A DNA stretch of 20,000 nucleotides from an uncultured virus (IMG/VR IMGVR_UViG_3300021431_000017) (taxonomy: Duplodnaviria; Heunggongvirae; Uroviricota; Caudoviricetes): the IMG/VR virus record IMGVR_UViG_3300021431_000017; one strand, given 5' to 3'. Position numbers and translations under genes: made by a program. How positions within the stretch are numbered: the first letter of the stretch is position 1; each line of letters starts with the position of its first letter. Shown piece after piece: positions 8,570 through 16,496 of this stretch. Below the pieces are notes generated by a model, which saw nothing but the letters and a program-made list of their open reading frames with translations, was not told the DNA's origin and did not search any database.

Positions 8570-10747
8570 ATGGCATATACAAAAACTCAGTGGGTAAATA
8601 ACGAAGAACCGAGCATCAACGCAGAGAACCTGAACAAGATGGAGCAGGGTATTTATGATGCTCAGTTTCCTGATGAGGGTGATGAAGGGCAGGTGCTTAC
8701 GAAAACCGCATCAGGTCAGGCGTGGGGAACTCTAAGTGCAACGAATGTCGAAACATCAAGCGATGTCGCTATTAAGTCGGTGAGTGGAAACCCAGTTACT
8801 ATCGCTGATGCTCTACAAGGGAAAGCGTTAGGAGTGAATACGACACTTGAACCTATTCAAGACCTTCACGGCTACGACCATCCATGGGCAGGGGGCGCAG
8901 GAAAAAACAAGTTGAAAGTGAACACCACATCAGTTACTAGAGGTGGTATTACTTTTACCGTTAATGATGATGGGAGTGTGAAGATAGAAGGCACAACAAA
9001 TAGTTCAAATGTATTCATTAATATGAACTATGTGGCAAATACACTAGGCATACCAGTAGGCACATGGAAAATCGGATTGCTTAGTGACGACCCAAGAATC
9101 AGTATAAGAGGATATGTGACTGCAAATTCTGTAGAAACTCGGGCCGAAGCATTTGGCATGGATTTTGAAACAGTGACAGTGCCAAACGATGCCACGCAAT
9201 CACATGTTCGAGTACAAATCAGTATCACTGGAATTACTATAAATACAACCGTTTATCCAATGATTCTGTCGGGCGATGAAACAGATACCTCTTGGGCACC
9301 CTACTCCAACATCTGTCCTATCAGCGGAAGAACGCAGGTGGATGTAAACAGGACAGGGAAGAATCTGCTAGATAATACGCTTTGCACACCGAGGACAACC
9401 GGTGGCGTCACAAGGATTATCAACTCTGACGGGACGATAACGTTGAACGGCACTTCGACGGGTGCCTCGATATGGTGGCGGTCGGCTGACAACATGAACG
9501 TACCGTTTAAAGCAGGGACGTACGTGGTATCGGTACAGCCGTCTGATGATTTACAGATACAGCTATTGTTCAAAAACGCTGGTTCGAAGTGGAACGAATT
9601 CACTCTTAATGAGGACGATGTACTGACTAATGTCCGCTACTTAATTACTATCGGAACAGTCTTCAATAATGTTGTAACGAAGCCAATGATTCGCCTAGCA
9701 TCTGAAACAGACGCAACGTTCGAGCCATACAACAGGCAAACCGTAACCGTTCAGTTAGGTCAGACAGTCTATGGTGGTACTTTGGATGTAACAAACGGAG
9801 AACTTACGGTTGAGAAGGAGTATGTGGATTTGGGTACGTTGAAATGGTCAAAAAATAGTTCAAACAGAAGTGTTTTTCAAGCGTCTATCGATTCCAAAGA
9901 AACAGGGATGGATAACATAGTATGCTCGAATTACATAACTGTTAATTCAAGTTCAGTAGGTCTAATTCCTAATGGGGCGATTAGAGGACACGCAACTAAT
10001 AAAGCGGTATACATACACGATGACACATACGCTTCTATTTGGGATAACGGTGATGTTGCCGACTTTAAAACCGCCATGAACGGAGTTCAACTCTGCTACG
10101 AACTCGCCACACCTCAAACCATCCAACTGACACCTGCACAGGTTAGCCTTCTGACAGGAACAAATATTATCACAACCAATGCAGATGATTTGTCTGTCAT
10201 GTATTACGCAACTGGAAAAGGTGACGTTGAGGGAAGCCTGTCATTCCTATTAGAAAAAACTGTGAGAAACGAGACATCCATAAATTCCCTTGCAGGTTCG
10301 CTTGCAATGGTAGAAACATCACCTGCAACAACTAATCATGCAGTGGGAGATTTGATAGTCTACAATAATCAACTTTATGAAGTGACTGTGGCGATTGCGA
10401 CTGGCGAAACGCTGACGGTTGGAACAAACATTTCTGCAACCAAAATGGGCGATCAGTTATCGGAATTATCCGATGGTTTTCATAAGTTTGGGGCATCTTC
10501 ACCATCAGGATTGACTATTACAGTTCCGAACTCTTATCGAGGCATTGTATTTTTTACAGATTCGTCTGCTCAGAGATGTGGACAGATTATTCTATTTTCA
10601 AATGGCTCTGGCTCAGTTAGTTATGCAACGGTTTTAGCACCCGGGGACATTACTTTAAAAACTGGAACTAATAGTTTGATTGTCATTCCGACTGCAGGCA
10701 CAAGAAGATTATTTGCCATCGACGTAGCTGGAACGCTAACGATATAA
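8570..10747 (+). CDS. tail fibre / receptor-binding protein
   Basis: 725 aa. N-terminal MAYTKTQWVN...INAENLNKMEQGI anchor motif, two GKN(K/L)L...N.DG(S/T)...GT beta-sandwich repeats, YELATP motif and a short beta-rich C-terminal tip. Confidence 0.75.
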   Translation: MAYTKTQWVNNEEPSINAENLNKMEQGIYDAQFPDEGDEGQVLTKTASGQAWGTLSATNVETSSDVAIKSVSGNPVTIADALQGKALGVNTTLEPIQDLHGYDHPWAGGAGKNKLKVNTTSVTRGGITFTVNDDGSVKIEGTTNSSNVFINMNYVANTLGIPVGTWKIGLLSDDPRISIRGYVTANSVETRAEAFGMDFETVTVPNDATQSHVRVQISITGITINTTVYPMILSGDETDTSWAPYSNICPISGRTQVDVNRTGKNLLDNTLCTPRTTGGVTRIINSDGTITLNGTSTGASIWWRSADNMNVPFKAGTYVVSVQPSDDLQIQLLFKNAGSKWNEFTLNEDDVLTNVRYLITIGTVFNNVVTKPMIRLASETDATFEPYNRQTVTVQLGQTVYGGTLDVTNGELTVEKEYVDLGTLKWSKNSSNRSVFQASIDSKETGMDNIVCSNYITVNSSSVGLIPNGAIRGHATNKAVYIHDDTYASIWDNGDVADFKTAMNGVQLCYELATPQTIQLTPAQVSLLTGTNIITTNADDLSVMYYATGKGDVEGSLSFLLEKTVRNETSINSLAGSLAMVETSPATTNHAVGDLIVYNNQLYEVTVAIATGETLTVGTNISATKMGDQLSELSDGFHKFGASSPSGLTITVPNSYRGIVFFTDSSAQRCGQIILFSNGSGSVSYATVLAPGDITLKTGTNSLIVIPTAGTRRLFAIDVAGTLTI

Positions 10748-10849
10748 ACATGTAAGTTAGGTTTTGGCAGATAGGGATATGAAATAGTATCGTGAGACTG
10801 GTTGCCATGTAATATTGTGTCGTATAAACATTCCTACTTAAATCAGCAT

Positions 10850-10881
10850 TTAGTGCAAAATATTCGATTTTTTTGCACTAA
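10850..10881. repeat. perfect 11-bp inverted repeat (possible terminator or protein-binding site)
   Basis: TTAGTGCAAAA-N10-TTTTGCACTAA, extendable by TCAG/CTGA. No U-tract after the stem. Confidence 0.6.
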
Positions 10882-10922
10882 CTGAATATATGGTGCAATA
10901 ATGCAGTAAGTTCAAGCAAATT

Positions 10923-11097
10923 AAATCGGTGGCGGAATAGGTAGACGCTATTTGGTTCAACTCCAAGCATAAGGGCGCACGACTTAATGGGTAACCCGGC
11001 TGAATATGGCTGTCGTGTGTACACTGGGCAGGCTCATGGCAAGTCTAGTCATGTACTGGTAGGCATGATATGCAGAGTGCAAATCTCTGCCCGATTT
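10923..11097 (+). ncRNA. tRNA-Leu-like element, copy 1 (expanded core)
   Basis: Acceptor-like stem AAATCGG/CCGATTT. D-arm TG-GCG-GAATAGGTAGA-CGC. T-arm GCAGAG-TGCAAAT-CTCTGC. 123-nt multi-hairpin core. Confidence 0.75.
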
Positions 11098-11139
11098 AGT
11101 TGCAAGTTACAGGCAAATTAAAAAAGCCGAAATTTCCTT

Positions 11140-11168
11140 ACTTAAAATCAAAAAATATGATTTTAAGT
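11140..11168. repeat. perfect 11-bp inverted repeat
   Basis: ACTTAAAATCA-N7-TGATTTTAAGT. Confidence 0.6.
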
Positions 11169-11212
11169 TAAACAAAATCAAGTTAGAATTTAGGAAAGTG
11201 AGGATACTAAAA

Positions 11213-11512
11213 ATGAAATACATTGTAAGCGAAATTCAATCATTCGCAACTGGACAGGTGAACGTTCTCAATACCGCTCACAATGCCAGAGAAGACGCAG
11301 AAGCAAAGTTTTATACACTCTGTGCAGGTGGATGCAAAACATCTCTTCCGAATTACACAATAACGCTTTTTACGGATGAGGGATTTATTCTTGATACCAA
11401 AAATTTCAAGCACAATGTTCAGCCAGAACCAGAGCAAGAACCAGAAGTTGCTCCTGTAGAAGATTCCACAGAAACTCAAACTGATTCTGAGGAAAACCAA
11501 GAAACGGCATAA
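11213..11512 (+). CDS. hypothetical phage protein with acidic C-terminal tail
   Basis: ATG at 11213 preceded by GTGAGGA is preferred over the GTG at 11198. 99 aa, located between the fibre and lysis genes. Confidence 0.7.
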   Translation: MKYIVSEIQSFATGQVNVLNTAHNAREDAEAKFYTLCAGGCKTSLPNYTITLFTDEGFILDTKNFKHNVQPEPEQEPEVAPVEDSTETQTDSEENQETA

Positions 11513-11537
11513 AGTATCAAACCCCTCGATACTTAGC

Positions 11538-11674
11538 ATACACGGTGACGGAATAGGTAGACGTGTTCATTTAGCGGTGATGACCAACACCCACATCAAA
11601 CATTAACCTCTTTAAAAACAGGGAAGTCTGGAACGCTTTACAGATATGATAGGTGCAAATCCTATCCCGTGTAT
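11538..11674 (+). ncRNA. tRNA-Leu-like element, copy 2
   Basis: Stem ATACACGG/CCGTGTAT. D-arm TG-ACG-GAATAGGTAGA-CGT (compensatory change versus the other copies). T-arm GATAGG-TGCAAAT-CCTATC. 83-nt core. Confidence 0.75.
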
Positions 11675-11692
11675 TATCAAAGGAGATTACAT

Positions 11693-13210
11693 ATGAATAA
11701 CTTATGTTTACCGATGAAGGTAATTAATATAACTCAGCATAGCGCAGGTTCTTATTCACACCCTAACAACTGTCTTGATTTAGCAGGTGTTGATAGTGGT
11801 GTGGATTTTGCTTTTGCGATGGGAGATTATTGGAAATGTATTTCTGGTCCGTGGGGAAGTCATACATATTTCTTCACCTGTACAGACGCAAAAGGAAACG
11901 CTGTAAAAGTACATTGTGCTGATAATGTTGACCGTGTTGTTACCGTGGCTATGACACACTCTAATTTTCAGTACGTTAAAGCACCGATTATTGGAAAGAT
12001 TTATAAAAACGGCGAGCCTATTTATGAAGAAGGTACTTACGGACAAGCAACCGGAAATCATATTCATTATGAAGTAGCAAGTGGTTTACAGTATTCTAAA
12101 TACAAGGATGAAACACTTGGTGTTTATCGCATGCACAATGAATTGATGCCCGAAATGGTTTGCTTTATCTGTGATGCATTTTCTACAGTAGCAAACATGG
12201 GCGGAGCGATTATGAAGCATTGCGCTACGGTAGAATATCAGAAGAAAAAGGAAATGTTAAAAGACGGATATAATCAGTATGTTTATCAGAATGTAACTAT
12301 TCATACCTATAAACAGACTACAGAAAAAATTGCTATTGTATCTTGTGAATATGGAAGTGTTTGTAATATTGAAGACGTAAAAATTTCACATAAGAAAATT
12401 AAAGCGGTCATGAATGCAAACTATTTCTTAATGTCCGGTGGCGGTGGTTATTTAGGGAGAGTACAAGGATATAAAAATAACTCTACAGACAAGATTGATG
12501 CTAGACCTGCAAATCCTGCTGAGAACGGCGCACCTGCTGATAAACCGTATATGGACTTAGTTTTTACAAAAACAGGAAATATTGTAATTGGTGATTTGTA
12601 TTCTTGGGAATATCCAATTAATGAAGTAGTGTTTGGAACATCTCCAGCAGGTGTTGAAATTCAAAACGGCGTGTCTGTAAATAAATATTCACCTGCTGTA
12701 GGGTATGGAAAGATTGTAAATAGCAATACTCAATCTGTATTAATTAGAGATAATGATGGTAAATTTGCATTCGCAACAGTTGAAAATGGTTTAGCACCTA
12801 TTCCAGACTTACGAGATTGGGGACTCATCTTCGGATTTGACCATATGTCAGTTTATGATTCCGGTGGTTCTACTCAATTAATGGTAGACGGAAAAATTAA
12901 ACAACGTAGCACGGATAAATCCCCTAGAAAATGTCCGGTATGGCTCGTAATGTATGAAGATGCTGAAGATGAACAAGAATATCCAGAAAATGCTATCGGA
13001 ACAATTCATTGCGTAAACAGCGGTATGAACATTCGTACTGACATTCGTGGTGATATTAAACATACAGTACGTAAAGGCGAAACTTGTGAATTATTACAGT
13101 TTATTGATGGTATTCAATCAGACGGTTATCAATGGGTTATGACAAGATACAATGGTATCTGTGGTTATTCTCAACTTGATACAAATGTCTGTTGGATAGA
13201 ACTAGATTAG
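11693..13210 (+). CDS. modular endolysin: M23-like peptidase + phosphodiester glycosidase (NAGPA/DUF2233-like) + SH3b-like domain
   Basis: ATG at 11693 after AAGGAG. M23-like motifs SHPNNCLDL and G.ATGNHIHYE, NAGPA-like motifs NANYF and DSGGSTQL, SH3b-like C-terminus MNIRT...DGYQW...GYSQ. Adjacent to the holin. Confidence 0.75.
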   Translation: MNNLCLPMKVINITQHSAGSYSHPNNCLDLAGVDSGVDFAFAMGDYWKCISGPWGSHTYFFTCTDAKGNAVKVHCADNVDRVVTVAMTHSNFQYVKAPIIGKIYKNGEPIYEEGTYGQATGNHIHYEVASGLQYSKYKDETLGVYRMHNELMPEMVCFICDAFSTVANMGGAIMKHCATVEYQKKKEMLKDGYNQYVYQNVTIHTYKQTTEKIAIVSCEYGSVCNIEDVKISHKKIKAVMNANYFLMSGGGGYLGRVQGYKNNSTDKIDARPANPAENGAPADKPYMDLVFTKTGNIVIGDLYSWEYPINEVVFGTSPAGVEIQNGVSVNKYSPAVGYGKIVNSNTQSVLIRDNDGKFAFATVENGLAPIPDLRDWGLIFGFDHMSVYDSGGSTQLMVDGKIKQRSTDKSPRKCPVWLVMYEDAEDEQEYPENAIGTIHCVNSGMNIRTDIRGDIKHTVRKGETCELLQFIDGIQSDGYQWVMTRYNGICGYSQLDTNVCWIELD

Positions 13211-13219
13211 GAGGTAATC

Positions 13220-13444
13220 ATGAAATTGTCCAATGAAACTTATGATGTACTTAAATGGATTGCACAGATTTTTCTGCCCGCACTCGGTACGCTTTACTTT
13301 GCTTTGGCAAGTATTTGGGGACTGCCGTATGGCGAACAGATTGTCGGTACAATTACCGCCTTAGATGCGTTTTTAGGTGCATTACTTCAGATTTCTACTG
13401 ATGCATACAATAAAGATAAAAATAAAATTAATGGTGTGAAATGA
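13220..13444 (+). CDS. holin (Dp-1 family)
   Basis: 74 aa with two hydrophobic helices and a basic C-terminus. MKLSNETYDVLKWIAQIFLPALGTLYFALA..WGLPY signature. Confidence 0.9.
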   Translation: MKLSNETYDVLKWIAQIFLPALGTLYFALASIWGLPYGEQIVGTITALDAFLGALLQISTDAYNKDKNKINGVK

Positions 13445-13641
13445 AAATTTGCGACTTTACAGTGCCAGAACTTGACCGCTTTAGAGAACTATGTAATTTT
13501 ACGGACGATGAACGTATGTATTTTGATTTAAGAGCCAAAAATAAATCAAATGTTCAGATTGCCTATGAGATGAACGTCTCTGAATCCACCGTTTCAGTAC
13601 TGGCACGTAAAGTCAAAAAGAAAATTGTTCGCATTATCTAA
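13441..13641 (+). CDS. small LuxR/GerE- or sigma region 4-like HTH DNA-binding protein
   Basis: 66 aa. FTDDE...KSNVQIAYEMNVSESTVS...KVKKKI helix-turn-helix pattern. Confidence 0.8.
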   Translation: MKICDFTVPELDRFRELCNFTDDERMYFDLRAKNKSNVQIAYEMNVSESTVSVLARKVKKKIVRII

Positions 13642-13646
13642 AAATG

Positions 13647-13655
13647 TGTTATACT
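13647..13655 (+). promoter_or_regulatory. extended -10 promoter for the tRNA/ncRNA island
   Basis: TG-T-TATACT about 28 nt upstream of element copy 3. The same 9-mer occurs at 19696-19704. Confidence 0.55.
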
Positions 13656-13682
13656 ATGTATAGCACATTTGTGCTTTAAGTA

Positions 13683-13785
13683 CTTCGGTGGCGGAATAGG
13701 TAGACGCTAAAGTTAGATAGATAATTCCTAAACTGGTTGGCGACAGATGCGAGTTATCATGCAGGGTGCAAATCCCTGCCCGAAG
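13683..13785 (+). ncRNA. tRNA-Leu-like element, copy 3 (no anticodon arm)
   Basis: Stem CTTCGG/CCGAAG. D-arm TG-GCG-GAATAGGTAGA-CGC. Long hairpin GATAATTC/GAGTTATC. T-arm GCAGGG-TGCAAAT-CCCTGC. 53-nt core. Confidence 0.75.
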
Positions 13786-13852
13786 AATTAGAAGGAAAAC
13801 TATAAACCCGTTTAAACTACGTAGAAAGTTTCCGTGACTGGTATTTAGTCTA

Positions 13853-13924
13853 GGTATCTAACACGTTTTACCAAAATGGGCAAACATAGCGTATAGATAC
13901 TGAATTCCGGAAAATGTTTGTCCG
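13853..13924 (+). ncRNA. predicted H-type pseudoknot RNA
   Basis: Stem 1: GGTATCTA..ACGTT (13853-13867) pairs with AGCGT.TAGATACT (13888-13901). Stem 2: TGGGCAAACAT (13877-13887) pairs with ATGTTTGTCCG (13914-13924). Confidence 0.5.
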
Positions 13925-13930
13925 AGTTAT

Positions 13931-13999
13931 TCCTGAATAGTTCAATGGTAGAACACATGACTATATCGTGATATGTGGGTTCAATTCCCACTTCAGGTG
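13931..13999 (+). tRNA. aberrant tRNA with a 5-nt anticodon loop (Asn/Gln-like body, undetermined identity)
   Basis: Acceptor TCCTGAA/TTCAGGT+G, D-arm GTTC/GAAC and T-arm GTGGG-TTCAATT-CCCAC are all intact. The anticodon arm is CATGA-CTATA-TCGTG. Confidence 0.7.
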
Positions 14000-14100
14000 C
14001 GCCGGATTGACCAACGTTGACGTCATTAAAACGTGGTGGGCGAGTGCTATCGTCAGCAGAGAAAATAGCATGTGGTTGTTGGTGCATCAACAACCAAAAC

Positions 14101-14175
14101 CCCCGTATATGCTTAACAGGTTAAAGGGTACCCCTTATAAGGGTAAGAGTGGTGGTTCGAGTCCACCTGCGGGGA
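14101..14175 (+). tRNA. tRNA-Ile (anticodon TAT)
   Basis: Acceptor CCCCGTA/TGCGGGG+A, anticodon arm TACCC-CTTATAA-GGGTA, T-arm GGTGG-TTCGAGT-CCACC. The D-arm is irregular (extra T, 3-bp stem). No encoded CCA. Confidence 0.8.
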
Positions 14176-14178
14176 CGC

Positions 14179-14251
14179 GCCGACTTAGCTCAATTGGTAG
14201 AGCAACTGCCTTGTAAGTAGTAAGTTAGGGGTTCAAGTCCTCTAGTCGGCA
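14179..14251 (+). tRNA. tRNA-Thr (anticodon TGT)
   Basis: Full cloverleaf: GCCGACT/AGTCGGC+A, GCTC/GAGC, ACTGC-CTTGTAA-GTAGT, AGGGG-TTCAAGT-CCTCT. Confidence 0.95.
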
Positions 14252-14252
14252 T

Positions 14253-14323
14253 TCCCGTGTAGTTCAACGGTAGAACAAGTGGCTTTGACCCACTCGATAC
14301 AAGTTCAACTCTTGTCACGGGTG
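14253..14323 (+). tRNA. tRNA-Gln (anticodon TTG)
   Basis: TCCCGTG/CACGGGT+G with a T1-T72 mismatch, GTTC/GAAC, AGTGG-CTTTGAC-CCACT, ACAAG-TTCAACT-CTTGT. Confidence 0.9.
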
Positions 14324-14394
14324 CTATTATATGTTATATTAAAAATGCCTTATCGAATCGGAACCCTTACTCAGGTTTTCGCCTCCATTTTTGG

Positions 14395-14432
14395 GATACT
14401 GCAAGTTGCCATGACTTGCAGTATTTTTTTTT
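14395..14432 (+). terminator. rho-independent terminator closing the RNA island
   Basis: GATACTGCAAGTTG/TGACTTGCAGTATT stem running into a T9 tract. Confidence 0.9.
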
Positions 14433-14434
14433 AT

Positions 14435-14467
14435 ACAATTTTTTAACAATTTCTTAATAAGTTGACT
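14435..14467 (+). promoter_or_regulatory. three direct repeats at 11-bp period abutting a TTGACT hexamer
   Basis: ACAATTT at 14435, ACAATTT at 14446, ATAAGTT at 14457. TTGACT at 14462-14467 has no canonical -10 at 17 bp. Confidence 0.45.
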
Positions 14468-14604
14468 GCTTGCTTTTAAAGTACGCTAAAAGCGTGAAAA
14501 GAGAGCGAATATGCGTGATATTAGTGAGTACTTGACAAATACTATGCAAAAAGACAAATGCTCGTCTATGAGTGCTTTTTTGACGCTACACGAAGAGGTA
14601 AATA

Positions 14605-14988
14605 ATGTTCGTATATTACAACCCAAATCCACAGAACAAACTTGTGGGAGATTGTGTGATAAGAGCAATTTGCAAACTGACAGATAGGGATTGGGAAGAT
14701 GTTTATTTAGATATCGCACTTCAAGGTTTCATGATGCATGATATGCCAACAGCAAATCACGTTTGGGGTACGTATCTAAAAGAAAATCATTTTGTTCAGT
14801 CATTACTGCCCAATACTTGTCCTGACTGTTATACGGTAAAAGATTTCTGCGTAGACTTTCCAAAAGGTACTTATCTATTAGCGATAGGAAATCATGTAGT
14901 GGCAGTTCAAGACGGCAATTATTACGATGCTTGGGATAGTGGTGACGAATTACCTATCTTTTATTGGCAAAAGGAGGAAGTTAAATAA
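14605..14988 (+). CDS. hypothetical protein, putative papain-like Cys-His-Asp hydrolase
   Basis: 127 aa with RBS GAGGT. GDCVIRAI ... HVVAV.DG.YYD.WDSG spacing fits a minimal cysteine peptidase fold. Confidence 0.6.
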   Translation: MFVYYNPNPQNKLVGDCVIRAICKLTDRDWEDVYLDIALQGFMMHDMPTANHVWGTYLKENHFVQSLLPNTCPDCYTVKDFCVDFPKGTYLLAIGNHVVAVQDGNYYDAWDSGDELPIFYWQKEEVK

Positions 14989-15398
14989 TGCCAGCATATA
15001 ACAACTATTTTCCGGTCGGATATCAGTATTATCAACCACAGTTTCAACAGCCTATTCAACCTACTCAATCACCCAATGTGGGAAATACTGGACCTAATGG
15101 AATTATCTGGGTGCAAGGGGAGGCAGGTGCAAAGTCGTATCTTGTGGCTCCTAATACAACAGTGCAGTTATGGGATAGTGAATCACAGACTATCTATCTC
15201 AAATCAGCCGATGCAACAGGAATGCCATCTATTAAAACTTTAGACTATACAATTCGTGAACTCCCTAATTCAACCCCAACTGTAGTACAGACTGTTCAGC
15301 CTGATTTAAGTAAATACGTAACTTGGGATGAATTGGAAGAAAAATTAAATTCTATGAAGGCAAGACCGATGCAGAGAAAGGAACACAGAGATGAGTAA
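14988..15398 (+). CDS. hypothetical protein with Q/P/Y-rich N-terminus
   Basis: 136 aa with RBS AAGGAGG and TAATG coupling. Globular core WVQGEAGAKSYLVAPNTTVQLWDSE. Confidence 0.8.
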   Translation: MPAYNNYFPVGYQYYQPQFQQPIQPTQSPNVGNTGPNGIIWVQGEAGAKSYLVAPNTTVQLWDSESQTIYLKSADATGMPSIKTLDYTIRELPNSTPTVVQTVQPDLSKYVTWDELEEKLNSMKARPMQRKEHRDE

Positions 15399-15591
15399 TC
15401 CGCTATTCAATCAGTACGGAAATAATCAGTACAGTAATATGATTCAGCGTTTTAATCAGTTTAAGCAGACATTTCACGGTGACCCTAAACAACAAGTTCA
15501 GAATCTTTTGAACAGCGGTAAAGTGTCACAACAGCAATACAATCAAGCAGTTCAAATGGCTAATGCATTTCAGAAAATGCTAGGCAAATAG
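15391..15591 (+). CDS. small Q/N-rich hypothetical protein
   Basis: 66 aa with RBS AAGGA, overlapping the upstream gene end. Confidence 0.75.
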   Translation: MSNPLFNQYGNNQYSNMIQRFNQFKQTFHGDPKQQVQNLLNSGKVSQQQYNQAVQMANAFQKMLGK

Positions 15592-15647
15592 TTATATAAA
15601 TTCCAAGTGCGCATAGGAGTTTGTATATAGAAGAAAGGAAATAAATT

Positions 15648-16496
15648 ATGTCTTTAGAAGAAAGTGGAAACGGACTTGTTATGCCAGTAGCACCGATGTA
15701 CGGTGGGGCAGGTTCCGGTTTCGGAAATGGTTTCGGCGGTGACGGATGGTGGATTCTTCTGCTGTTCATTCTGCTCGGAAACGGCGCTTGGGGCAACGGC
15801 TTCGGCGGTGGATTTGGTGGCGGAGACCTTTATCCTTGGATGAATCAGTCAAATCAGATTAATGGTGGATTCCGTGACCAGATGATTAACTCTAACATCG
15901 ATTCTATTCAGAATGGTGTAAACAGCATTCAGACACAGTTGTGTAACGGTTTTGCCGGTGTAAATCAGACTGTACAGAATGGTTTTGCACAGGCTGAAAT
16001 TGCTGACAATGCACGTCAGATGGCTAACATGCAACAGGCCTTTGCAAATCAGACAGCAATGTCCCAGGGTTTCAACGCTCTCGGAACTCAGTTTGCGGAT
16101 TGTTGCTGTGAAAATCGCCTTGCTAGTGCTGACCTCAAATACACAATCGCTACAGAAAACTGTGCTGACCGTGCGGCGATTTCTGATGGTATTCGTGACG
16201 TTATTGAAAACTGCAACCGCAACAATCAGCGTATTCTTGACCAACTCTGTGCTGACAAGATTGATGCTAAGAATGAGAAGATTGCAGACCTTGAACGTCA
16301 ACTTACAATGGCTAATCTTGCGGCTTCGCAGACTGCTCAGACCGCACAGATTCGTGCAGGACAGGTTGCAGAGATTGACGCTATGTACAATCGTCTGAAG
16401 GATTGCCCTGTGCCGACAATGCCGGTATACGGTCAGACACCTATCTTTACTTGCCCGAACAATAACTGCGGATGCGGTTGTAGCGGTCAGTTCTGA
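15648..16496 (+). CDS. Gly-rich, single hydrophobic segment, coiled-coil, Cys-cluster protein of unknown function
   Basis: 282 aa with RBS AAAGGA. WWILLLFILLG flanked by GFGGG repeats, long heptad region, DCCCE and C-terminal CGCGC. Confidence 0.85.
   Translation: MSLEESGNGLVMPVAPMYGGAGSGFGNGFGGDGWWILLLFILLGNGAWGNGFGGGFGGGDLYPWMNQSNQINGGFRDQMINSNIDSIQNGVNSIQTQLCNGFAGVNQTVQNGFAQAEIADNARQMANMQQAFANQTAMSQGFNALGTQFADCCCENRLASADLKYTIATENCADRAAISDGIRDVIENCNRNNQRILDQLCADKIDAKNEKIADLERQLTMANLAASQTAQTAQIRAGQVAEIDAMYNRLKDCPVPTMPVYGQTPIFTCPNNNCGCGCSGQF

What the first reader, a model, noticed from the sequence alone, without database searches (positions are those of the whole stretch)
10923..13785. Dispersed three-copy family of tRNA-Leu-like RNAs with a fixed elbow and unrelated cores
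Seen: copies at 10923-11097, 11538-11674 and 13683-13785 all fit CGG-TG-RCG-GAATAGGTAGA-CGY-[core]-hairpin-AT-(6-bp stem)-TGCAAAT-(stem)-CCG. The loops are invariant while every stem covaries: D-stem GCG/CGC vs ACG/CGT, T-stem GCAGAG, GATAGG or GCAGGG, terminal stem AAATCGG, ATACACGG or CTTCGG. The cores (123, 83, 53 nt) share no evident sequence. Known: the D-arm matches bacterial class II tRNA-Leu (A15-U48, G18G19), but normal tRNAs have a 5-bp T-stem and a TTC loop. All three copies deviate in the same way (6 bp, G at position 55), which argues against independent pseudogene decay. Inference: a selected tRNA-elbow scaffold. It could be an RNase P/Z processing signal punctuating the late transcript, a stable carrier for variable RNA cargo, or a decoy for host tRNA-targeting defence nucleases or tRNA sensors.
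Basis: partly seen in the sequence, partly recalled or inferred. Interest (0 to 1): 0.9.

Follow-up and report, generated by a model that had tools for sequence, protein, structure and literature searches.

The report
Phage leucine-tRNA look-alike RNA family
The three repeats are genes for a large, so far unnamed family of phage small RNAs that keep the body of a leucine tRNA but replace the codon-reading arm with a swappable insert, much like the old unexplained "stable RNAs" of phages T5 and T4.

Summary
Three same-strand copies (10923-11098, 11539-11674, 13682-13787) share a 7-bp acceptor stem, a tRNA-Leu D arm, an invariant AU, a 6-bp T stem and the T loop UGCAAAU, around unrelated cores of 123, 83 and 53 nt.

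ARAGORN and Rfam 15 do not call them. Pattern scans of IMG/VR estimate about 530 to 2100 stored stretches. On 115 sequences both stems covary strongly (97% of cells paired against 72% in shuffles).

Hosts are almost all Bacillota. Members sit inside tRNA arrays, or between the late activator and the HNH/terminase genes, and are often followed by a terminator-like hairpin. They lack anticodon arms.

Cores are modular. A close relative of this phage (about 95% identical over 4.7 kb) keeps copy 3's flanks and stems but carries an unrelated core.

Best reading: a non-decoding tRNA-Leu-derived RNA, cut out by tRNA-processing enzymes, in which the tRNA body is a scaffold and handle for a variable module. 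Processing and function are inferred, not shown.

Closest known is T5 RNA1, and more loosely T4 RNAC/RNAD, all of unknown function. This scan has noted leucine-tRNA look-alikes in other phages before.

The parts
10923..11098 (+). Copy 1 of the tRNA-Leu-like RNA: 7-bp acceptor, D arm, degenerate CAA anticodon-like hairpin (10952-10968), about 100 nt of extra hairpins, AU, 6-bp T stem, UGCAAAU loop, discriminator A
   Evidence: 62.4 bits
11539..11674 (+). Copy 2: same scaffold with D stem ACG/CGU and an 83-nt core. It ends 5 nt before the ribosome-binding site (AAAGGAG) of the 505-aa lysin-like ORF. Homology with relative L322 starts 28 nt upstream of it
   Evidence: (70.5 bits)
13682..13787 (+). 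Copy 3: same scaffold with a 53-nt core (a 12-nt linker plus one long hairpin). It is the first gene of a promoter-to-terminator RNA unit that also holds four tRNAs. Its core is replaced in relative L322
   Evidence: (90.1 bits)
13628..13655 (+). Promoter-like site TTCGCA-16-TATACT with TG before the second hexamer, about 27 nt upstream of copy 3
   Evidence: consensus match only; 11 such sites found against 12.9 expected in the region
13931..14324 (+). Four co-oriented tRNA genes (Ile-UAU x2, Thr-UGU, Gln-UUG) downstream of copy 3, none with an encoded CCA
14393..14427 (+). Terminator-like 16-bp hairpin plus T run that closes the copy 3 + tRNA unit
13441..13641 (+). 66-aa GerE / sigma-region-4-like regulator directly upstream of copy 3. 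This is the position that late activators hold upstream of family members in other phages
   Evidence: phrog_36, E 5.8e-6; PF00196 GerE

Best explanation
Each copy is a gene for a non-decoding small RNA descended from a phage tRNA-Leu.

It is transcribed with tRNAs, or from the leader in front of late or lysis genes. It folds into a tRNA-like L shape: a 7-bp acceptor stem stacked on a 6-bp T stem, with the D loop and T loop forming the elbow.

Inferred: host RNase P cuts its 5' side. RNase Z, or the RNase P cut of an abutting tRNA, frees its 3' side.

The tRNA body then serves as processing signal, stabilising scaffold and probably a protein-recognition handle. The region that replaces the anticodon arm and enlarges the variable arm is an interchangeable structured module whose target is unknown.

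Shown: the family, its structure, its tRNA-Leu ancestry, the loss of the anticodon arm, its contexts, and the modular exchange of cores.

Inferred: excision, stability, and any action in trans.
For: Structure:
- On 115 distinct sequences, 97.2% of cells are paired against 71.7% in shuffles and 36-44% in slid controls. 13 of 16 pairs show changes on both sides.
- The acceptor stem is exactly 7 bp: 103-112 of 115 paired at pairs 1-7, dropping to 67 and 73 of 115 beyond.

Size and spread:
- About 530 stored stretches for the two-motif pattern and about 2100 for the T-arm pattern in IMG/VR, both estimates from partial scans.
- Of 121 T-arm hits, 118 have a 7-nt acceptor partner upstream and 94 have the tRNA-Leu-type D arm.

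tRNA-Leu ancestry:
- The D arm differs by one base from the true phage tRNA-Leu(CAA) next to a member in L021.
- True tRNA-Leu genes score 32-39 bits on the family model, against 55-96 bits for members.

Not a decoder:
- ARAGORN and the Rfam tRNA model do not call the copies.
- 8 of 248 unique members have a 5-bp/7-nt hairpin right after the D arm, and 1 has a Leu anticodon with U33 and R37.

tRNA-like processing context:
- 13 of 76 loci have a tRNA within 300 nt, always on the same strand, with gaps of 0-5 nt in L262, L293 and L308. L058 has two members in tandem abutting tRNA-Met.
- The base after the discriminator is T in 72 of 115, and there is no encoded CCA in most members, as for the window's own tRNAs.

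Own transcription units: a terminator-like hairpin lies within 400 nt downstream in 30 of 67 loci, against 8 of 67 upstream. Copy 3 lies between a promoter-like site and a terminator, together with four tRNAs.

Modular cores:
- L322 is 94.6% identical to the window over 4.7 kb, yet copy 3's core is replaced from the end of the D arm to just before the T stem, with two further changes inside the T stem.
- L012 and L102 have flanks 95-99% identical and cores 57% identical.
- 248 unique members fall into 176 core clusters. One acceptor stem occurs with 10 core clusters, and one core cluster occurs with 5 different acceptors and, by eye, compensatory changes.
Against: - No transcript end, processing site or stable RNA was shown. 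The only RNA-library data were contigs, which cannot show this.
- 57 of 76 loci have no tRNA within 3 kb.
- No candidate target of any core was found. No core has a complementary match elsewhere in the window longer than shuffles give.
- A scaffold role alone does not explain why the D-loop and T-loop sequences, G55 and the extra T-stem pair are so strictly kept.
- Core diversity could be neutral: it may reflect low constraint plus recombination through the conserved arms.
- Single-sequence folding energies are only modestly better than shuffles (z -2.0, -1.3, -2.4).
- The loop invariance in my first alignment is partly by construction, because sequences were fished with those motifs. The T-arm-only sample relaxes this for the D arm only.
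Confidence: 0.55

Rival explanations
1. Purely cis-acting punctuation. The tRNA-like fold is only a handle for RNase P (and Z) that cuts polycistronic late or lysis transcripts at set points. Alternatively it stays on the mRNA as a base-paired 5' end that blocks 5'-exonuclease. The core is a spacer without function.
For: - Copies 1 and 2 lie between protein genes of one strand with no terminator between them. Copy 2 ends 5 nt before a ribosome-binding site.
- In other phages the element sits in the leader between the late activator and HNH/terminase: annotated phages LP-101, BtpYZU01 and Sha1.
- 28 of 74 upstream genes are late-activator families. 13 of 68 downstream genes are terS, terL or HNH.
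Against: - Median distance to the next ORF of at least 90 aa is 344 nt.
- Terminator-like hairpins follow 30 of 67 members before the next genes.
- Some members sit inside pure tRNA arrays.
- Any ordinary tRNA would serve this purpose, so the role does not explain the family-specific signature or the structured, exchanged cores.
Confidence: 0.2
2. tRNA-Leu mimic aimed at a tRNA-Leu-reading or acceptor-end-reading protein. It binds or is charged by LeuRS, or soaks up a host toxin or defence enzyme that acts on tRNA bodies or 3' ends. The conserved tRNA-Leu body is the working part and the core is irrelevant.
For: - The kept parts (D-loop G18G19 spacing, A14, A15-U48, and A73 in 70 of 115) are those that, as I recall from work on E. 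coli LeuRS, define leucine identity without the anticodon.
- The scaffold is tRNA-Leu again in the sister family with canonical loops and in T5 RNA1.
- D-loop and T-loop sequences are conserved far more tightly than RNase P or Z would need.
Against: - The discriminator is not A in 45 of 115, including copy 2.
- The 13-bp stack and G55 depart from real tRNA-Leu.
- No LeuRS, toxin or defence gene is linked to the element.
- The reading does not explain structured cores conserved across different scaffolds.
- The identity rules are recalled, not tested here.
Confidence: 0.15
3. DNA-level or decaying element: tRNA-Leu pseudogenes kept only as short conserved sequences where phage genomes recombine (mosaic linkers), or intron-bearing tRNA-Leu genes.
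For: - Homology between the window and L322 starts 28 nt before copy 2.
- In L019 and L023 similarity to L012 ends at the 3' end of the element.
- Copy 1 keeps a CAA anticodon-like hairpin.
Against: - Compensatory changes in 13 of 16 pairs with intact loops across hundreds of phages are not decay.
- Only 1 of 248 members has a plausible Leu anticodon loop.
- Cores of 30-160 nt are too short for group I introns (a size limit I recall, not tested here). No Rfam intron model hit them.
Confidence: 0.05

Closest known systems
Phage T5 RNA1 (NC_005859 30501-30644, annotated 'tRNA-like stable RNA with unknown functions')
   Same: - Phage-encoded and co-oriented inside a tRNA gene cluster.
- A tRNA-Leu-type D arm (GGAAUUGGUAGAC), acceptor stem and T arm around an enlarged core of about 85 nt without a normal anticodon arm.
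- Function unknown.
   Different: - Canonical T loop (UUCAACU) and a 5-bp T stem.
- It scores 25.8 bits on the family model, against 55 bits or more for members and 32-39 bits for true tRNA-Leu.
- Its host is a proteobacterium, whereas the family is in Bacillota phages.
- It resembles more the sister family with canonical loops seen.
Phage T4 RNAC and RNAD (species 1 and 2 stable RNAs)
   Same: - Small stable RNAs encoded at the end of a phage tRNA cluster.
- Expressed late, with roles still unknown (passages read in PMC3014915 and PMC9697503).
   Different: - No tRNA-Leu D arm.
- The family model gives at most 7.4 bits (E 0.66).
- Only a T-arm-like end is visible in the sequence.
Class II tRNA-Leu
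   Same: Acceptor stem, U8, 3-bp D stem, D loop with A14, A15 and G18G19, U48-like U before the T stem, and a hairpin in the variable-arm position. There is a one-base difference in the D arm from the neighbouring true phage tRNA-Leu.
   Different: - No anticodon arm in nearly all members.
- 6-bp T stem, so a 13-bp stack.
- G at position 55, which occurs almost only together with A17 in IMG/VR. Counts of stored stretches: about 530 with A17+G55, 1 with U17+G55, 29 with A17+U55, about 390 with U17+U55. The gap windows differ slightly between scans and two of the counts are estimates.
- Not called by ARAGORN or by Rfam's tRNA model.
Bacterial Y RNA-like YrlA (RF02553) and engineered tRNA scaffolds for recombinant RNA
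   Same: A tRNA-like module joined to a second module. The engineered scaffold (recalled: Ponchon and Dardel) likewise replaces the anticodon arm with a cargo RNA and relies on tRNA processing for stability.
   Different: - The YrlA model gives no hit on any copy at E up to 10.
- The 5' and 3' ends here close the acceptor stem, not a Ro-binding stem (that layout is recalled).
- No Ro/Rsr gene is linked. Only 2 of 68 downstream genes are a DUF2828 'RNA-binding' protein.

Membership tests
tRNA (RF00005 / ARAGORN) | Called by the tRNA covariance model or by ARAGORN | tested here: not met
   ARAGORN and Rfam find only the four true tRNAs at 13931-14324. There is no tRNA hit on the three copies even at E up to 10.
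tRNA (RF00005 / ARAGORN) | 5-bp anticodon stem with a 7-nt loop carrying U33, an anticodon and R37 | tested here: not met
   Copy 1 has UUCAACU (CAA) but C37. Copies 2 and 3 have none. Family-wide, 8 of 248 have such a hairpin and 1 has a Leu anticodon.
tRNA (RF00005 / ARAGORN) | 7-bp acceptor plus 5-bp T stem (12-bp stack) and T loop U54-U55-C56 | tested here: not met
   7 + 6 bp with UGCAAAU in all three copies. The 6th T-stem pair is paired in 113 of 115 aligned sequences, and UGCAAAU was itself the fishing motif.
Phage tRNA-like stable RNAs (T5 RNA1 type) | Phage gene co-oriented with or adjacent to tRNA genes | tested here: met
   Copy 3 heads a unit with four tRNAs. 13 of 76 loci have a same-strand tRNA within 300 nt, some 0-5 nt away.
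Phage tRNA-like stable RNAs (T5 RNA1 type) | tRNA-Leu-like acceptor, D and T arms around an enlarged non-decoding core | tested here: met
   T5 RNA1 shows the same layout.
Phage tRNA-like stable RNAs (T5 RNA1 type) | Sequence and structure homology to T5 RNA1 itself | tested here: inconclusive
   The family model gives 25.8 bits (E 3.5e-6 in a 7-kb search) on T5 RNA1. That is below true tRNA-Leu genes (32-39 bits), so shared tRNA-Leu ancestry is enough to explain it.
Phage tRNA-like stable RNAs (T5 RNA1 type) | Accumulates as a discrete processed stable RNA in infected cells | not testable with these tools
   Only contigs of RNA libraries were available. They cannot show ends or levels.
YrlA / Y RNA | Match to RF02553 and a linked Ro/Rsr gene | tested here: not met
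   The only YrlA hit in the region is weak and lies on true tRNAs (14150-14203, 20.4 bits against a gathering score of 69). No Ro gene appears among the neighbours.
tmRNA | tRNA-like domain plus a tag reading frame, called by ARAGORN | tested here: not met
   ARAGORN reports no tmRNA in the window.

The most novel reading that the evidence does not exclude
Bacillota phages run a natural 'tRNA-scaffold display' system. A constant leucine-tRNA body is recognised by the host's tRNA-processing enzymes and perhaps by LeuRS. It presents one of hundreds of alternative structured RNA modules that act in trans on host or rival-phage factors, for example as aptamers or decoys in defence and counter-defence. 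These modules are exchanged like cassettes by recombination through the conserved D and T arms, which would make this an RNA-level hypervariable locus. The same logic would explain T5 RNA1 and the sister family with canonical loops.
Probability: 0.2. Interest if true: 0.9.

Novelty: new variant of a known kind. Interest (0 to 1): 0.75.

Why it matters
**An unnamed, large RNA family.** Small stable tRNA-like RNAs of phages T4 and T5 have been known for decades without a function. Two papers I read in passages still call the T4 ones of unknown role.

This finding puts a very large, sharply defined and unannotated family of the same kind on the map. It has an estimated 530 to 2100 stored stretches in IMG/VR and is absent from Rfam 15.

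**Clear features to test.** The family has a structural signature: G55 on an A17 background and a 13-bp stack. It also has a modular core that is replaced between near-identical phages.

**Tractable systems.** It occurs in laboratory phages of Lactobacillus, Enterococcus, Bacillus and Listeria. That makes the old question testable by deletion, core exchange, pull-down and charging assays.

**Practical value.** It also gives annotators a model for a recurrent feature of the leader between late activator and terminase genes. At present this stretch is left blank: the annotated features under the match read 'none' for nearly all of the 40 listed phage records.

Tried and rejected
- **Rfam.** Gathering-threshold and E-value scans of the window, three annotated phage loci and 40 IMG/VR loci gave no family on the elements. 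The Plastid-rps12 hit on copy 2's T arm (24.3 bits, E 3.5) is a chance or T-arm-like match.
- **Own assembly.** It is not held. The nearest record, G001 (an 11-kb fragment), has no motif.
- **Public RNA libraries.** Four metatranscriptome runs of two studies (animal gut by their records) hold contigs over 9000-16000 at low depth. Contigs cannot show transcription, ends or levels. The contig breaks near 11113-11120 coincide with an A-run length variant. No conclusion is drawn.
- **Antisense targets.** The longest complementary matches of the three cores elsewhere in the window are 9-11 nt, no longer than for shuffled cores (11-13 nt).
- **Donors of the cores.** No other locus I hold shares the window's cores or L322's replacement core.
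- **Core consensus.** A joint fold of eight members with seemingly related cores gave a poor core alignment, so I do not claim a common core structure.
- **L323.** This 63%-identical lysin relative has no element in 4.3 kb.
- **Copy 1 in L322.** It is absent from L322's equivalent spacer, but that spacer aligns too poorly to define an insertion.
- **Literature.** Nine full-text searches found no description of this family. Weinberg et al. 2017 (PMC5737381, passages) and the 10,006-candidate survey (PMC10690425, passages) do not describe it in the text I saw. Their supplementary motif lists were not examined and could hold it. Listeria sRNA tables (PMC3105390, supplement file 2; file 1 could not be searched) place rliG in the equivalent EGD-e spacer, but I could not tell whether any rli RNA is this element.
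Full report
**1. What is in the window**

Three same-strand elements lie at 10923-11098, 11539-11674 and 13682-13787. All share one plan:
- a 7-nt acceptor strand, then UG;
- a 3-bp D stem (GCG/CGC, or ACG/CGU in copy 2);
- the D loop GAAUAGGUAGA;
- a variable core of 123, 83 or 53 nt that ends in AU;
- a 6-bp T stem (GCAGAG, GAUAGG or GCAGGG);
- the loop UGCAAAU, then the acceptor 3' strand.

The 14-nt D-loop motif occurs three times exactly, where 0.07 matches with up to two mismatches are expected. The 9-nt T-loop motif also occurs exactly three times.

Minimum-energy folds recover the acceptor and T helices in all three. The energies are only modestly better than shuffles (z -2.0, -1.3, -2.4).

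ARAGORN and Rfam 15 call only the four true tRNAs at 13931-14324. Nothing is reported on the three elements, even at E up to 10.

Copy 1 alone keeps an anticodon-like hairpin (UUUGG-UUCAACU-CCAAG, CAA), with C where a purine is expected at position 37. The cores show no similarity to each other.

**2. It is a large family with strong covariation**

- A pattern of the T arm alone returned 120, with an estimated 2100. Of its 121 matches, 118 have a complementary 7-nt acceptor strand upstream. 94 carry the tRNA-Leu-type D arm, 42 of them identical to the window's, and some have compensating D-stem changes such as GUG/CAC. Lengths run from 75 to 254 nt with a median near 128.
- On 115 distinct sequences (alignment A2), 97.2% of cells in the 16 proposed pairs are standard pairs. 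Column shuffles give 71.7% and slid partners give 36-44%. 13 of 16 pairs show changes on both sides.
- The acceptor helix is exactly 7 bp: 103-112 of 115 are paired, falling to 67 and 73 of 115 for the next two positions. The T helix is 6 bp, so the stack is 13 bp rather than a tRNA's 12.
- The discriminator is A in 70, U in 31, G in 8 and C in 6 of 115. The next base is U in 72 of 115.

One caveat applies. The sequences in A2 were fished with the two loop motifs, so loop invariance there is by construction. relaxes this for the D arm only.

A covariance model built from A2 finds just the three copies in the window, at 90.1, 70.5 and 62.4 bits, with the next hit at 7.7 bits.

**3. Ancestry and signature**

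The D arm differs by one base (A instead of U at position 17) from the true phage tRNA-Leu(CAA) that sits beside a member in L021. True tRNA-Leu genes score 32-39 bits on the family model, against 55-96 bits for members.

G55 is almost confined to the A17 background. IMG/VR counts of stored stretches:

| D loop / T loop | Count |
|---|---|
| A17 + G55 | about 530 (estimate) |
| U17 + G55 | 1 |
| A17 + U55 | 29 |
| U17 + U55 | about 390 (estimate) |

The gap windows differ slightly between these scans. The pattern could reflect common descent, a structural coupling near the G18-55 contact, or both.

Members are not decoders. Only 8 of 248 unique members have a 5-bp/7-nt hairpin right after the D arm, and one has a leucine anticodon with U33 and R37.

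**4. Where it lives**

In one-genome-per-species bacterial and archaeal contigs the pattern occurs in 85 stretches. Of the 80 listed, 73 are Bacillota (Lactobacillaceae, Bacillaceae, Paenibacillus, Enterococcus, Clostridia, Erysipelotrichaceae). Six are MAGs of other phyla and one is unclassified.

In GenBank phages it is found in Lactobacillus, Enterococcus, Listeria, Bacillus, Leuconostoc, Weissella and Brochothrix phages. The annotated features under the match read 'none' for nearly all of the 40 listed records.

In Listeria phage LP-101, Brochothrix phage BtpYZU01 and Lactobacillus phage Sha1 it lies in the long spacer between the late transcriptional activator and the HNH/terminase genes. 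In LP-101 it sits between rli62 (RF01486) and mcrA RNA (RF03010).

For 80 IMG/VR loci with 3-kb flanks:
- The nearest upstream same-strand ORF of 90 aa or more belongs to late-activator families (phrog_248, 36 or 2198) in 28 of 74 distinct cases.
- The nearest downstream one is terS (5), terL (2) or HNH (6) in 13 of 68, and phrog_704 in 7 of 68. The rest are diverse.
- 19 of 76 distinct loci hold a tRNA gene within 3 kb and 13 within 300 nt. All of those are on the element's strand, with gaps of 0-5 nt in L262, L293 and L308. L058 has two members in tandem abutting tRNA-Met.
- A terminator-like hairpin with a T run lies within 400 nt downstream in 30 of 67 loci, against 8 of 67 upstream. Fourteen of the 30 lie 41-85 nt downstream.

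In the window:
- Copy 3 follows a 66-aa GerE / sigma-region-4-like regulator and a promoter-like site (13628-13655). It heads a unit of four tRNAs closed by a strong terminator-like hairpin at 14393-14427.
- Copies 1 and 2 flank a 104-aa ORF between the tail genes and the lysin-holin genes.

**5. The cores are exchangeable modules**

L322, an IMG/VR relative, is 94.6% identical to the window over 11510-16195. Its copy 2 is nearly the same as the window's.

Its copy 3 keeps the window's acceptor stem and flanks, with 3 differences in the 109 upstream columns. The whole core, from the end of the D arm to the AUCAUG before the T stem, is replaced by an unrelated 67-nt sequence. There are two further changes inside the T stem.

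A second lineage shows the same thing. L012 and L102 have flanks 95% and 99% identical and cores 57% identical. This was 1 of 9 locus pairs with both flanks at least 90% identical. L019 and L023 share the upstream flank and scaffold with two further cores.

Across 248 unique members, the cores fall into 176 clusters, 139 of them singletons. One acceptor stem (GUGCUUG) occurs with 10 core clusters. One core cluster occurs with 5 different acceptor stems and, by eye, compensating changes in its helices.

So scaffold and core assort independently. Whether that reflects selection for diversity or neutral recombination through the conserved arms cannot be told from these data.

**6. Most likely mechanism**

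Shown:
- a conserved tRNA-shaped fold derived from tRNA-Leu;
- no anticodon arm;
- co-orientation and abutment with tRNAs;
- frequent downstream terminators;
- modular cores.

Inferred:
- The RNA is released like a tRNA, by RNase P at the 5' side and RNase Z or a neighbour's RNase P cut at the 3' side. The U-rich start of the trailer and the lack of encoded CCA fit what I recall of Bacillus RNase Z substrates.
- The tRNA body gives it stability and a handle.
- The core is the variable working part.

I put 0.55 on this. Rivals:
- A purely cis-acting cut site or 5' stabiliser for late mRNAs (0.2).
- A tRNA-Leu mimic aimed at LeuRS or at a tRNA-body or 3'-end-targeting enzyme (0.15). This reading would explain why the leucine identity set, and tRNA-Leu again and again, is what is kept.
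- A DNA-level linker, pseudogene or intron-bearing tRNA (0.05).

**7. Comparison with what is known**

Leads from earlier notes of this scan pointed to T5 and T4, and I checked them.

T5 RNA1 is annotated as 'tRNA-like stable RNA with unknown functions'. Its sequence shows a tRNA-Leu D arm, a canonical T arm and an enlarged core. It scores 25.8 bits on the family model. It is therefore the same kind of RNA but not a member.

T4 rnaC and rnaD are annotated small stable RNAs at the end of the tRNA cluster. They score 7.4 bits or less. Their roles are called unknown in passages of PMC3014915 and PMC9697503.

No full-text search found this family described. Supplementary motif catalogues of two surveys were not examined.

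I file it as a new variant of a known kind: phage tRNA-like stable RNAs.

Noticed in passing
L443-L559 (IMG/VR loci), e.g. L446, L455, L472, L535: A sister family. It has tRNA-Leu D arms with the canonical GGAAUUGG loop and the canonical T arm ACAGGUUCGAAUCCUGU, often the acceptor AGUCAGG, an A discriminator, and long non-anticodon cores. 59 of 118 loci have 50-60 nt between D arm and T loop, against about 36-41 nt in true tRNA-Leu. T5 RNA1 looks like this type.
   Followed up: partly
L001:669-728(-), L002:137-194(+), L004:172-231(+), L064:234-275, L121:2268-2335, upstream flank of L012/L102: Mini tRNA-like RNAs of about 58-66 nt (acceptor, D-like and T arm, no anticodon arm) lie just upstream of family members in the late leader. 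They pass Rfam's tRNA threshold (43-47 bits), or weakly resemble mascRNA in L064.
   Followed up: no
window 13931-14000: The first tRNA-Ile(UAU) has a shortened or irregular anticodon region (Rfam aligns 3 nt where 5 are expected; ARAGORN places the anticodon at position 32). A second, regular tRNA-Ile(UAU) lies at 14101-14176.
   Followed up: no
L052:150-271 and L021:291-388: Other odd tRNA-like genes sit in the same arrays. One is a class I tRNA body with a roughly 50-nt insert in place of the anticodon arm. The other is a 97-nt tRNA-like gene that ARAGORN calls with a 4-nt anticodon and a long variable region.
   Followed up: no
L030, L058:231-388(-), L423, L541, L557: Some cores contain a nested canonical T arm (GGUUCGAUUCC), as if a second tRNA-like piece were carried inside the scaffold.
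   Followed up: no
L252:991-2487(-), L293:3558-3998(+): In 2 of 68 loci the next gene is a phrog_850 'RNA-binding protein' with Pfam DUF2828 + DUF7788. This is a possible RNA partner protein worth a look.
   Followed up: partly
L248:517-1674, L261:529-1686, L294:848-1897; L007:619-724: Reverse-transcriptase genes (RVT_1) lie upstream of the element in three loci. In L007/L248 a drum RNA (RF02958) and tRNA-Trp follow it.
   Followed up: no
window 11510; L012/L019/L023 element 3' ends: Family members coincide with mosaic junctions. Similarity between the window and L322 begins 28 nt before copy 2. Similarity among L012, L019 and L023 ends at the element's last base.
   Followed up: partly
window 13788-13930: The 143-nt spacer between copy 3 and the first tRNA is almost identical in L322 (1 difference), has no ORF and no Rfam hit. 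It may hold another small RNA.
   Followed up: no
window 11214-11512 and L322:1853-2097: A small acidic-tailed ORF of unknown family (no PHROG or Pfam hit) sits just upstream of copy 2 in both phages, although the DNA there is no longer alignable.
   Followed up: no
L253, L296, L297, L298, L300, L311, L321 (downstream genes): phrog_704 proteins (380-410 aa; in L253 a GcrA-like N terminus plus a weak metallophosphatase match) are the commonest single downstream neighbour, at 7 of 68.
   Followed up: partly
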